Shown in pieces: positions 43,945-45,704 of a stretch of 64,000 nt of DNA. The stretch lies in assembly GCA_965235115.1 (NCBI GenBank), contig OZ249436.1, forward strand, positions 9,488,001 through 9,552,000, read 5' to 3'. The stretch comes from Laetmonice hystrix (taxonomy: Eukaryota). Both the position numbers and the translations under genes were made by a program. How positions within the stretch are numbered: the first letter of the stretch is position 1; each line of letters begins with the position of its first letter. The notes under the pieces were generated by a model. It searched no databases and had not been told where the DNA came from. It saw only the letters and a list, made by a program, of their open reading frames with translations.

Positions 43945-45704
43945 AGAGGACTATACAACTTTTCTCTTTAGGGACATTGTCAAAGTAATTGGGTTACCCC
44001 TGATGCCCGTGCATTTCAAAAGAAAAATACAGTCTACGCCAGTGCCAGGATTACCTTAACAGTCAATGTTCGGTAGAAATCATGTGTAGCTCTAACTAGG
44101 AAAATATGGATTCCGTCTCATTTCAAAAAGATGTGTGTAGGGGGGAGGGTCCATTGTCCTGCTCGACCACCAAAGCTCCTTTTTTAGGGGAGTGGCGGTG
44201 GCCTAGTGGGCATGGATGTCGACACCTTATGCTATGCGAATGGGTGCAGTAATCTTAGGGCCTGGGTTCGATTCCTGTAGAGGACTATACAACTTTTCTC
44301 TTTAGGGACATTGTCAAAGTAATTGGGTTACCCCTGATGCCCGTGCATTTCAAAAGAAAAATACAGTCTACGCCAGTGCCAGGATTACCTTAACAGTCAA
44401 TGTTCGGTAGAAATCATGTGTAGCTCTAACTAGGAAAATATGGATTCCGTCTCATTTCAAAAAGATGTGTGTAGGGGGGAGGGTCCATTGTCCTGCTCGA
44501 CCACCAAAGCTCCTTTTTTAGGGGAGTGGCGGTGGCCTAGTGGGCATGGATGTCGACACCTTATGCTATGCGAATGGGTGCAGTAATCTTAGGGCCTGGG
44601 TTCGATTCCTGTAGAGGACTATACAACTTTTCTCTTTAGGGACATTGTCAAAGTAATTGGGTTACCCCTGATGCCCGTGCATTTCAAAAGAAAAATACAG
44701 TCTACGCCAGTGCCAGGATTACCTTAACAGTCAATGTTCGGTAGAAATCATGTGTAGCTCTAACTAGGAAAATATGGATTCCGTCTCATTTCAAAAAGAT
44801 GTGTGTAGGGGGGAGGGTCCATTGTCCTGCTCGACCACCAAAGCTCCTTTTTTAGGGGAGTGGCGGTGGCCTAGTGGGCATGGATGTCGACACCTTATGC
44901 TATGCGAATGGGTGCAGTAATCTTAGGGCCTGGGTTCGATTCCTGTAGAGGACTATACAACTTTTCTCTTTAGGGACATTGTCAAAGTAATTGGGTTACC
45001 CCTGATGCCCGTGCATTTCAAAAGAAAAATACAGTCTACGCCAGTGCCAGGATTACCTTAACAGTCAATGTTCGGTAGAAATCATGTGTAGCTCTAACTA
45101 GGAAAATATGGATTCCGTCTCATTTCAAAAAGATGTGTGTAGGGGGGAGGGTCCATTGTCCTGCTCGACCACCAAAGCTCCTTTTTTAGGGGAGTGGCGG
45201 TGGCCTAGTGGGCATGGATGTCGACACCTTATGCTATGCGAATGGGTGCAGTAATCTTAGGGCCTGGGTTCGATTCCTGTAGAGGACTATACAACTTTTC
45301 TCTTTAGGGACATTGTCAAAGTAATTGGGTTACCCCTGATGCCCGTGCATTTCAAAAGAAAAATACAGTCTACGCCAGTGCCAGGATTACCTTAACAGTC
45401 AATGTTCGGTAGAAATCATGTGTAGCTCTAACTAGGAAAATATGGATTCCGTCTCATTTCAAAAAGATGTGTGTAGGGGGGAGGGTCCATTGTCCTGCTC
45501 GACCACCAAAGCTCCTTTTTTAGGGGAGTGGCGGTGGCCTAGTGGGCATGGATGTCGACACCTTATGCTGTGCGAATGGGTGCAGTAATCTTAGGGCCTG
45601 GGTTCGATTCCTGTAGAGGACTATACAACTTTTCTCTTTAGGGACATTGTCAAAGTAATTGGGTTACCCCTGATGCCCGTGCATTTCAAAAGAAAAATAC
45701 AGTC
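43945..45704 (+). mobile_element. Head-to-tail 5.27-mer of a 334-bp tRNA-promoter (SINE-like) element inserted in a satellite monomer
   Basis: AGAGGACTATAC recurs at 43945, 44279, 44613, 44947, 45281 and 45615; the insert ends at 45704. Satellite sequence stops at ...GGGAGGCCAAA and resumes at AGGAGTCCCTAC. Confidence 0.92.
44186..44519 (+). ncRNA. Putative 334-nt Pol III transcript (representative monomer)
   Basis: A box TGGCCTAGTGG 44199-44209, B box GGTTCGATTCC 44265-44275, purine start 13 nt before the A box, T6 at 44514-44519. The 5' and 3' halves are complementary. Transcription itself is inferred. Confidence 0.6.

What the first reader, a model, noticed from the sequence alone, without database searches (positions are those of the whole stretch)
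43945..45704. Circularly permuted concatemer of a 334-bp Pol III element: footprint of rolling-circle copying of a small circular RNA?
Seen: 5 x 334 + 90 bp of near-identical head-to-tail units sit inside a satellite monomer. The insert neither starts nor ends at the element's natural ends (start ~44186, T6 terminator). It begins just after the B box and stops 90 nt past the last full turn, with no poly-A tail and no TSD. The T6 run directly abuts the purine 13 nt upstream of the A box (CTCCTTTTTT|AGGGGAG), so the unit length equals one predicted transcript with no spacer. Known: metazoan non-LTR retrozymes, newt satellite 2 and schistosome SM-alpha are repeats of a few hundred bp thought to spread via RNA or circular RNA, but they carry hammerhead ribozymes. 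Inference: a Pol III transcript was circularised end-to-end and reverse-transcribed for several turns. That would be a retrozyme-like mobile RNA whose ends are set by Pol III start/stop rather than a recognisable ribozyme.
Basis: partly seen in the sequence, partly recalled or inferred. Interest (0 to 1): 0.88.

Follow-up and report, generated by a model that had tools for sequence, protein, structure and literature searches.

The report
Penelope-dependent SINE-like element in tandem
The 334-base repeats are a truncated head-to-tail insertion of a small parasitic element, carrying a tRNA-like promoter, that borrows the copying machinery of a Penelope-like retrotransposon in the same genome; this makes it an unusual, ribozyme-free cousin of the animal retrozymes.

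Summary
The repeat is real: 5.27 near-identical 334-bp units at 43945-45704. An identical second copy lies at 46544-48303. Both sit inside 848-bp satellite monomers.

The array end is not an arbitrary permutation point. In about 95 sampled loci of the same genome, 79 of 91 family blocks end at the same unit position (180-185, ...ATACAGTC). 5' starts are spread over the whole unit, and some copies carry 9-23 bp target duplications.

The genome holds a 5.6-kb Penelope-like element (reverse transcriptase followed by a GIY-YIG nuclease) that also stands in head-to-tail tandems. Its copies end at the same ATACAGT, next to the same satellite motif. Its end/start junction is homologous to unit positions 122-219.

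So the unit is a non-autonomous Penelope derivative with a tRNA-like Pol III head. Head-to-tail multimers with 5' truncation are the known insertion signature of that class.

No hammerhead or other Rfam ribozyme was found in the unit or in the partner.

Its specific mechanism, a circularised Pol III transcript, is not supported but is not excluded either. No RNA data were available.

The parts
43945..45704 (+). Array 1: 5.27 head-to-tail units of 334 bp. It starts at unit position 94 and ends at unit position 183. Unit position 1 is the A of AGGGGAG at 44186.
   Evidence: TRF; unit comparison, one substitution
46544..48303 (+). Array 2: an identical copy of array 1, carried along when the insert-bearing satellite repeat was duplicated.
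   Evidence: 0 differences in 1760 bp; 2599-bp spacing
44186..44519 (+). Reference unit, positions 1-334. Positions 2-183 form the SINE-like module that occurs alone elsewhere in the genome. Positions 184-334 form the spacer, which ends in T6.
   Evidence: Single copies spanning 2-183 with target duplications (L054, L057)
44199..44209 (+). A-box-like TGGCCTAGTGG (unit 14-24). The consensus is recalled, not taken from a tool.
   Evidence: Read; full-length single copies start 12 nt upstream at G2
44265..44275 (+). B-box / T-loop-like GGTTCGATTCC (unit 80-90).
   Evidence: Only weak Rfam match, to the T-loop of tmRNA; ARAGORN calls no tRNA
44307..44404 (+). Unit 122-219: the segment homologous to the end/start junction of the autonomous Penelope-like element.
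   Evidence: Local alignment score 57 against shuffles of 16.1 +/- 2.6, maximum 31; no homology for unit 1-121 or 220-334
44514..44519 (+). T6 run (unit 329-334), a candidate Pol III terminator, directly before A1.
   Evidence: junction tally
45698..45704 (+). TACAGTC, the canonical 3' terminus of the family (unit 177-183). It overlaps the satellite's TACAGTG.
43936..43944 (+). 5' junction: satellite GAGGCCAAA (43936-43943 are satellite bases) plus one extra A at 43944. The satellite's CAG is lost.
   Evidence: Alignment to an intact monomer
43322..48519 (+). Two 2599-bp insert-bearing satellite repeats.
36567..64000 (+). 848-bp satellite (821-849 bp variants). Its 18-bp subrepeats CAAACAGTACAGTGAGGC hold the target motif.

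Best explanation
The 334-bp unit is a non-autonomous derivative of a Penelope-like retroelement (PLE) that lives in the same genome.

Its parts are:
- about 62 bp like the PLE's 3' end (unit 122-183);
- about 36 bp like the PLE's first bases (unit 184-219);
- 115 bp of unknown origin ending in T6 (unit 220-334);
- a tRNA-like head with A and B boxes (unit 2 to about 95).

The PLE's reverse transcriptase and GIY-YIG nuclease are inferred to copy it by target-primed reverse transcription. Copying would start at an internal site of the RNA, at ...AUACAGU(C), and integration favours DNA that reads TACAGT[C/G]AGG.

The window's array is one such insertion. It landed in the TACAGTGAGG motif of an 848-bp satellite monomer, was copied backwards through five and a quarter units, and stopped at unit position 94. 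The monomer that carried it was later duplicated.

Shown here: the shared terminus, the shared targets, the homology, 5' truncation, target duplications in some copies, and tandem arrangement of both partner and parasite.

Inferred: Pol III transcribes the unit from G2; the template for multi-unit copies is an RNA longer than one unit. The most likely source is transcription running through several units of an existing array, as proposed for PLEs. Some later growth by unequal crossing-over is possible.
For: Family-wide anatomy:
- The unit junction occurs 2633 times in the genome at up to 2 mismatches, against 0 in the reversed-pattern control.
- The 3' motif occurs 5006 times, and 2392 of these continue into the spacer.
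- Of 91 sampled blocks, 79 end at unit position 180-185.
- 5' starts of the 41 blocks that cross a unit junction range from 1 to 315.
- Single copies start at position 1-6 in 18 of 59 cases.
- A flanking repeat of at least 9 nt occurs in 8 of 26 insertions outside minisatellite tails, against 32 of 2000 mismatched-pair controls. One is a 23-bp repeat around a 5.86-unit array (L003) and one a 19-bp repeat flush with the ends (L063).

The partner:
- It has a 5575-bp period and two ORFs. ORF2 carries RVT_1 followed by GIY-YIG.
- Its post-ORF sequence aligns to unit 122-219 with score 57, against a shuffle maximum of 31.
- Terminal partner copies end at ATACAG(T), followed by 34-mers (L109) or by 848-like satellite (L112).
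- Of 100 listed partner ends, 44 run on into the next copy and 45 abut T[GA]A[GT][GA]... satellite sequence. Eleven of those 45 read TGAGAAATCCCTACAAGGT, the same satellite position as the window's insert.

Independent data:
- In run X2, contigs leave the family at unit 182/183 into GAGGGCTTCC... or AGGTGGGGTATATAGGG....

Literature (passages read):
- PLE reverse transcription starts inside the RNA, and a multi-copy transcript is proposed as the template (PMC11167929).
Against: - No RNA evidence of any kind. No RNA run was listed.
- The tRNA origin rests on two box motifs only. ARAGORN and the Rfam tRNA model find nothing.
- A T6 run inside every unit should stop Pol III, so read-through multi-unit transcripts are not expected from that polymerase. 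Arrays also almost never start at G2 (2 of 41), so the source of multi-unit templates is unexplained.
- Arrays are homogeneous for lineage variants: 76C>T in 6 of 6 units of L003, 36G>A in 5 of 5 units of L014, and a period of 334 or 335 constant within an array. This needs repeated passage through a single unit. Read-through of a mixed array does not give that by itself.
- Many copies have no target duplication (18 of 26).
- PLE hallmarks are only weakly seen. Head-to-head inverted partners occur in 2 of 75 loci. An optional tail extension is seen in 2 of 91 ends, at unit 208-209.
- All sampling beyond pattern counts comes from one contig (C1).
Confidence: 0.75

Rival explanations
1. A unit-length RNA is circularised and the reverse transcriptase runs round it several times from the fixed ATACAGU start site. 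This would be a ribozyme-free retrozyme.
For: - Non-integer multimers with 5' phases spread evenly over the unit.
- Arrays almost never start at the presumed transcription start (2 of 41).
- Arrays are homogeneous for lineage variants and for unit length, as expected if every unit is copied from one circle.
- Retrozymes, the nearest relatives, are expressed as circular RNAs closed by a host tRNA ligase (PMC7229834, passages read).
Against: - No self-cleaving motif: Rfam finds none at E<=1 over 6 kb and none at E<=10 over 751 nt, and there is no CUGANGA core on either strand.
- The 334-nt RNA folds no better than shuffles (z +0.25).
- The T6-A-G junction includes A1, which full-length single copies lack.
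- That junction is nearly constant.
- The 5.6-kb partner makes the same kind of tandems, up to 7 copies.
- No RNA data.
Confidence: 0.12
2. Multi-unit arrays are made mostly at the DNA level. An insertion of a little more than one unit grows afterwards by unequal crossing-over or replication slippage. A variant is that the fragment came from a satellite of this unit by recombination or via circular DNA.
For: - Units within young arrays are identical, and arrays are homogeneous for lineage variants.
- Run lengths of exact junctions on C1 are not geometric. Counted by eye in the list: 43 single, 10 double, 1 triple, 2 quadruple, 4 quintuple, 1 sextuple.
- Local amplification followed by unequal crossover is proposed for retrozymes (bioRxiv 10.64898/2026.07.22.740005, passages read).
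Against: - As the origin of the insert, it does not explain the fixed 3' end (79 of 91), the target motif, or the target duplications.
- The two window copies kept exactly the same unit number and the same single substitution after their duplication.
- Three 9.5-kb segmental copies on C1 each keep three motif hits.
- The longest array seen holds at least 11 units; no large satellite of this unit appeared in the lists. Those lists show only the first 100 hits, so one cannot be excluded.
Confidence: 0.15
3. It is an ordinary LINE-dependent tRNA SINE. The tandems arise because new copies keep landing in the tail of older copies.
For: - Irregular head-to-tail clusters of 5'-truncated single copies separated by 34-bp repeats exist (L042, L045, L047, L079).
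- Tandem-like SINE arrays are described in bivalves (PMC11481361, passages read).
Against: - Self-tail insertion gives irregular spacing, not exact 334-bp periods.
- The only autonomous element found with the same terminus, the same targets and sequence homology is a reverse transcriptase plus GIY-YIG element.
- No LINE partner was searched for systematically.
Confidence: 0.05

Closest known systems
Animal non-LTR retrozymes (Cervera and de la Pena 2020, PMC7229834; Li et al. 2026 preprint, 10.64898/2026.07.22.740005)
   Same: - Repeats of a few hundred bp with no coding capacity.
- Dispersed short head-to-tail arrays, from dimers to multimers.
- Target duplications are variable or absent.
- They are proposed to depend on Penelope-like elements and are related to the PLE's terminal region.
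   Different: - Retrozymes are defined by a type I hammerhead in every unit and are expressed as circular RNAs.
- Here no hammerhead or other Rfam ribozyme was found, and no RNA data exist.
- This unit instead carries a tRNA-like Pol III head.
Schistosome Sm-alpha / Sj-alpha SINE-like elements (Ferbeyre 1998, Laha 2000; seen only as cited in PMC2770079, where passages were read)
   Same: A tRNA-like head (Sm-alpha copies are called tRNA-Gln pseudogenes by tRNAscan), a few hundred bp long, at high copy number.
   Different: They carry an active hammerhead. Their unit size and tandem organisation are recalled by me, not read. No PLE partner with a shared terminus was shown in what I read.
Penelope-like elements and their pseudo-LTR / partial-tandem insertions (Craig et al. 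2021, PMC8557442; Frangieh et al. 2024, PMC11167929)
   Same: - Fixed 3' end with strong 5' truncation and head-to-tail partial tandems.
- Targets are biased to simple repeats.
- Reverse transcription starts inside the RNA.
[quoted passage not shown]
   Different: - The element here is 334 bp and non-coding, with a Pol III-type head.
- The partner has a C-terminal GIY-YIG domain yet no recognisable hammerhead.
- The partner also has an extra upstream ORF with NADAR and GDSL-like domains.
Tandem-like SINE arrays in bivalves, potato and squamates (PMC11481361, passages read; PMC10702118, search listing only)
   Same: SINE units in direct tandem, sometimes with truncated first and last units.
   Different: - Those arrays are explained by unequal recombination between target duplications at one locus.
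- Here more than a thousand dispersed arrays share one 3' end and one unit junction.

Membership tests
Non-autonomous derivative of a Penelope-like element | Sequence similarity to an autonomous PLE of the same genome at the element's terminus | tested here: met
   Unit 122-219 aligns to the PLE post-ORF junction with score 57, against a shuffle maximum of 31. The terminus ATACAGT is identical.
Non-autonomous derivative of a Penelope-like element | The partner encodes a reverse transcriptase plus a GIY-YIG nuclease | tested here: met
   RVT_1 at residues 193-344 and GIY-YIG at 501-590 of ORF2, both above Pfam cut-offs.
Non-autonomous derivative of a Penelope-like element | 5' truncation and partial or multicopy head-to-tail insertions | tested here: met
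   79 of 91 blocks share the 3' end, and starts of 41 multi-unit blocks span positions 1-315. The partner stands in 5.58-kb tandems.
Non-autonomous derivative of a Penelope-like element | Same target preference as the partner | tested here: met
   45 of 56 terminal partner ends abut T[GA]A[GT][GA]... satellite sequence. For the small element, 10 of 26 non-tail insertions, plus the window copy, abut GAGG or GATGG (flanks read by eye).
Non-autonomous derivative of a Penelope-like element | Optional 30-40 bp tail and adjacent inverted truncated copy | tested here: inconclusive
   2 of 91 ends fall at unit 208-209, near a second ACAGTC 31 nt downstream. Head-to-head pairs occur in 2 of 75 loci.
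Non-LTR retrozyme | Type I hammerhead ribozyme in each repeat | tested here: not met
   Rfam finds none at E<=1 (6 kb) or E<=10 (751 nt). There is no CUGANGA on either strand of the unit.
Non-LTR retrozyme | Expression as unit-length circular RNA | not testable with these tools
   No RNA run was listed. The contigs laid are not on record as RNA.
tRNA-derived SINE (LINE-dependent) | tRNA-related head with an internal Pol III promoter | tested here: inconclusive
   A-box-like and B-box-like motifs are present at normal spacing, and single copies start 12 nt upstream of the A box. ARAGORN and the Rfam tRNA model find nothing.
tRNA-derived SINE (LINE-dependent) | 3' end derived from a partner LINE | tested here: not met
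   The 3' end matches a PLE, not a LINE. LINEs were not searched systematically.
Satellite repeats carried by Helentron or MITE elements (as in oysters and clams) | Arrays bounded by constant left and right element arms | tested here: not met
   Upstream flanks are unrelated between loci and start phases vary.

The most novel reading that the evidence does not exclude
The unit is a ribozyme-free retrozyme. A unit-length RNA made from the Pol III head is closed into a circle by host enzymes, and the Penelope reverse transcriptase copies it round and round from the fixed ATACAGU site. This would explain why arrays have no defined 5' end and why every unit of an array carries the same private variants and the same unit length.
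Probability: 0.12. Interest if true: 0.8.

Novelty: new variant of a known kind. Interest (0 to 1): 0.5.

Why it matters
How Penelope-like elements make their odd partial tandems is still unsettled.

Their known small parasites, the retrozymes, are defined by a hammerhead ribozyme that is thought to make circular RNA templates. Here a young, very abundant parasite makes the same kind of arrays without any recognisable ribozyme, and so does its partner. The family has about 2600 unit junctions, and arrays are nearly identical within themselves.

If that holds, the ribozyme is not needed for tandem formation. The cause would then lie in the reverse transcriptase: internal initiation, long or repeated templates, or homing to its own end.

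The pair also shows a Pol III-type head serving a Penelope partner rather than a LINE. It further shows sequence-specific landing in a satellite motif, which links mobile elements to satellite evolution.

I found no description of a tRNA-headed element with a demonstrated Penelope partner in three full-text searches. These searches do not cover most subscription journals or Repbase.

Tried and rejected
- Whole-genome DNA search with the unit returned nothing, because common words are skipped.
End statistics therefore rest on about 95 loci of contig C1 plus pattern lists that show only the first 100 hits.
- A hammerhead at the fixed end (CUGAUG...GAAA...GUC|) was considered. The core reads CUGAUGC, no helix I or II can form, and Rfam is silent. 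Rejected.
- A minimal hammerhead in the partner was not found by Rfam at E<=1 or by a crude descriptor. The only Rfam hit, CsrC, lies in a GGA-rich stretch and is taken as spurious.
- Helentron or MITE carriage was rejected, because there are no constant arms.
- The 34-bp repeats were first read as the element's own tail. They also flank 5' ends, cut after ...CCTAATCAC, and sit in inverted arrays around an unrelated repeated core (L048, L046). They are better read as a preferred target.
- Taxon: a search with a window ORF gave only unnamed proteins.
- No RNA holder was listed among sequencing runs.
- Contigs laid on the left junction (43760-44130) were too short to bridge it.
- BLAST of the Penelope unit against the window gave no hit at E<=1e-5.
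- Ferbeyre 1998 (PMC108972) is not held.
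Full report
**1. The observation**

Tandem Repeats Finder reports 43945-45704 as 5.3 copies of a 334-bp unit with 99% matches and score 3513. 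The five full units differ by a single A>G in the fifth.

A second array at 46544-48303 is identical over all 1760 bp. Both lie in a satellite with an 848-bp period that fills the window from about 36567 to its end. The two insert-bearing repeats are 2599 bp long.

The satellite flank to the left of the two arrays differs at 12 of 623 positions. The flank to the right differs at 0 of 216. So the insertion happened once and was then copied, with part of its monomer, by satellite recombination.

Against an intact monomer the site reads GGCCAAA-CAG-TACAGTG-AGGAG. In the insert-bearing copy CAG is gone and one A is added at the 5' junction. The insert's last seven bases, TACAGTC, stand where the satellite has TACAGTG. 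There is no poly-A and no target duplication.

I number the unit from the A of AGGGGAG at 44186. The array then starts at position 94 and ends at position 183.

**2. The family in the genome**

The window lies on contig C1 of a 627-Mb, 35-contig assembly. The runs that hold the repeat are marine or aquaculture samples and two coded organisms.

Pattern counts:
- The unit junction AAAGCTCCTTTTTTAGGGGAGTGGCGGTGG occurs 2633 times at up to 2 mismatches; the reversed control gives 0.
- The motif just before position 183 occurs 5006 times at up to 1 mismatch.
- 2392 of these continue into position 184 onward. That leaves roughly 2600 termini.

Among the first 100 exact junctions on C1, I count by eye 61 runs: 43 single, 10 double, 1 triple, 2 quadruple, 4 quintuple (two are the window's) and 1 sextuple. 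Arrays of at least 11 units exist.

I fetched about 95 loci of C1 and mapped the unit on them.
- Of 91 homology blocks whose 3' end lies inside the fetched stretch, 79 end at unit position 180-185 (181: 19; 182: 17; 183: 37).
- The other 12 are one at 176, five at 318-326, two at 208-209, and four at 37-89 where something else interrupts the copy.
- The 5' starts of the 41 blocks that cross at least one unit junction run from 1 to 315. Six cluster at 178-185 and only two lie at positions 1-2.
- Blocks without a junction start at position 1-6 in 18 of 59 cases. Some of the 59 are array edges cut by my own fetch.
- Copies that start at position 2 or 3 lack A1. All eight that start at position 1 have a T-run leader in front, so they reach further upstream.

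An ordinary single-copy form therefore exists (positions 2-183). The 334-bp unit is that form plus a 151-bp spacer.

Target duplications:
- Among 72 non-redundant insertions with both ends in view, 26 lie outside 34-bp minisatellite context.
- Eight of those 26 have a flanking repeat of at least 9 nt. Mismatched-pair controls give 32 of 2000.
- Clean cases are L063 (19 bp, flush), L057 (9 bp), L054 (15 bp), L038 (13 bp with one mismatch) and L003 (23 bp around a 5.86-unit array).
- The remaining 18 show none.

A fixed 3' end, varying 5' ends and target duplications in some copies are the marks of target-primed reverse transcription.

**3. Target**

Most sampled insertions (about 45 of 72) sit in arrays of a 34-bp repeat, roughly AGGTGGGGTATATAGGGACCTAATCACTACAGTC. 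The upstream repeat is cut after ...AATCAC and the downstream sequence resumes at AGGTGGGG.

Others sit in the 18-bp subrepeats of the 848-bp satellite and its relatives, at ...CAAACAC|TACAGT|GAGG.... Ten of the 26 non-tail insertions read this way, by eye.

The element's terminal TACAGT(C) always overlaps a TACAGT of the target. The window's copy fits this rule exactly.

**4. The partner**

A search of the genome with the Pfam GIY-YIG model gave 124 matches. Most belong to one family with an open frame of up to 759 residues, standing in head-to-tail tandems of about 5.58 kb, up to seven in a row.

I read 8.8 kb of one such tandem on contig C7 (L107 + L113 + L108).
- The period is 5575 bp, and the two copies do not differ over 3270 bp.
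- ORF2 carries RVT_1 (residues 193-344) followed by GIY-YIG (501-590), both above Pfam's cut-offs. This is the domain order of canonical Penelope-like elements.
- ORF1 (837 residues) carries NADAR and GDSL-like lipase domains.

About 100 nt after the ORF2 stop, the element reads ...CAAATAAAATACAGT|GAAGCCAGTGCCAGGATTATCTT.... This stretch aligns to unit positions 122-219 with local score 57. One thousand shuffles gave 16.1 +/- 2.6, with a maximum of 31. The rest of the unit (1-121 and 220-334) shows no similarity to the partner.

The last copy of that tandem (L109) ends at ...AAATACAGTC and runs into 34-bp repeats. Another copy (L112) ends at ...AAATACAGT and runs into 848-like satellite at its 18-bp subrepeats.

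Genome-wide, 100 of 101 partner ends were listed.
- 44 continue into the next partner copy.
- 45 abut T[GA]A[GT][GA]... satellite sequence. Eleven of these read TGAGAAATCCCTACAAGGT, the very position at which the window's array sits.
- 11 abut something else.

The small element and the 5.6-kb element thus share terminus, target and about 100 bp of sequence across the end/start junction.

**5. What it works like**

The literature I read describes this anatomy for Penelope-like elements.
- They show a high degree of 5' truncation, partial tandems ("pseudo-LTRs") and insertion bias for simple repeats.
- An optional 30-40 bp tail is described.
- An in-vitro study found that a Penelope reverse transcriptase starts at two adjacent sites inside the RNA. 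It proposed that a transcript holding several copies is the template (PMC11167929, abstract and passages).
[quoted passage not shown] They have been argued to be non-autonomous Penelope derivatives (bioRxiv 10.64898/2026.07.22.740005, abstract and passages).

The window's array is therefore best read as a normal product of this machinery acting on a 334-bp parasite.

The homology that continues 36 nt past the copying start fits an internal start site that needs downstream RNA. It would also explain why single copies (2-183), which lack that part and the T6, are dead ends, while multi-unit copies can serve as new sources. This last point is inference.

**6. What stays open**

The source of templates longer than one unit is not shown.

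Points against simple Pol III read-through:
- Each unit holds a T6.
- Arrays almost never start at G2 (2 of 41).

Points favouring passage through a single unit:
- 76C>T is present in 6 of 6 units of L003, and 36G>A in 5 of 5 units of L014.
- 76T marks a lineage of 85 exact hits in about 45 loci (counted by eye from the list). Its arrays are uniform for the variant and have periods of either 334 or 335, constant within an array.

A circle, end-to-end template jumps, or later DNA-level growth from an insertion of just over one unit would each give that uniformity.

- The junction carries A1, which full-length single copies lack.
- The junction is nearly constant: T6-A in 39 of 46, T7-A in 5, other in 2. 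The sample is biased to T6 and holds one locus twice.
- No ribozyme was found.
- The RNA folds no better than shuffles: z +0.25 for the 334-nt unit and -0.22 for 183 nt.
- The 5.6-kb partner builds like tandems.

No RNA run was listed, so nothing can be said on expression.

**7. Independent data**

Contigs of other runs laid on 43760-44130 did not bridge the left junction.

In run X2, contigs leave the family at 44033/44034 (unit 182/183) into GAGGGCTTCC... (5 contigs) or AGGTGGGGTATATAGGG... (9 contigs). This repeats the terminus and the two target types in another data set.

**8. Verdict**

The element is a new variant of a known kind: a Penelope-dependent, ribozyme-free, tRNA-headed small retroelement that inserts as truncated head-to-tail multimers into a satellite motif.

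It misplaced the element's ends, and its rolling-circle step remains an untested minority reading.

Noticed in passing
L107+L113+L108 (G000:C7:15712988-15721832); ORF1 at joined coordinates 2793-5303: The Penelope-like partner has a second, upstream 837-residue ORF with NADAR and GDSL-like lipase domains. It overlaps the reverse transcriptase ORF by 19 nt. I do not know of such an ORF in Penelope-like elements (from recall only).
   Followed up: partly
G000:C20:10225312-10226174: Five copies of the partner's end/start junction lie 207 bp apart. This looks like another, even smaller tandem derivative of the same Penelope-like element, with no tRNA-like head implied.
   Followed up: no
L048:2000-3800; L046: Arrays of the 34-bp repeat stand in inverted orientation on both sides of a repeated core of about 130 bp, like a foldback-type element. 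Both arms are riddled with insertions of the small element.
   Followed up: partly
L042, L045:2700-3320, L079: There are irregular head-to-tail clusters of copies truncated near unit position 31-36, each followed by one to three 34-bp repeats. The clusters are alike at three loci, so a composite unit seems to have been amplified or moved as a block.
   Followed up: no
window 43322-48519 versus neighbouring monomers: The satellite has sequence subtypes arranged in higher-order patterns (821-bp and 848-bp variants recur). The two insert-bearing repeats have left halves of different subtypes but identical right halves, which points to an unequal exchange with a breakpoint between about 43840 and the insert.
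   Followed up: partly
window 5086-6201 and 31185-31667: Two other minisatellites lie in the window: a 34-bp unit repeated 33 times and a 69-bp unit repeated 7 times. Neither matched the 34-bp target repeat in my scan of the window.
   Followed up: no
window 6966-8527 and 15536-17243, minus strand: Two paralogous pairs of open frames look like the exons of tandemly duplicated genes. Their relatives in the protein collection are all unnamed and have no Pfam domain.
   Followed up: partly
unit positions 2-8 and 324-330 (e.g. window 44187-44193 and 44509-44515): GGGGAGU at the 5' end can pair with GCUCCUU just before the T6. In an array the same bases form a small hairpin with the T6 in its loop. 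There is no variation to test whether the pairing is conserved.
   Followed up: no
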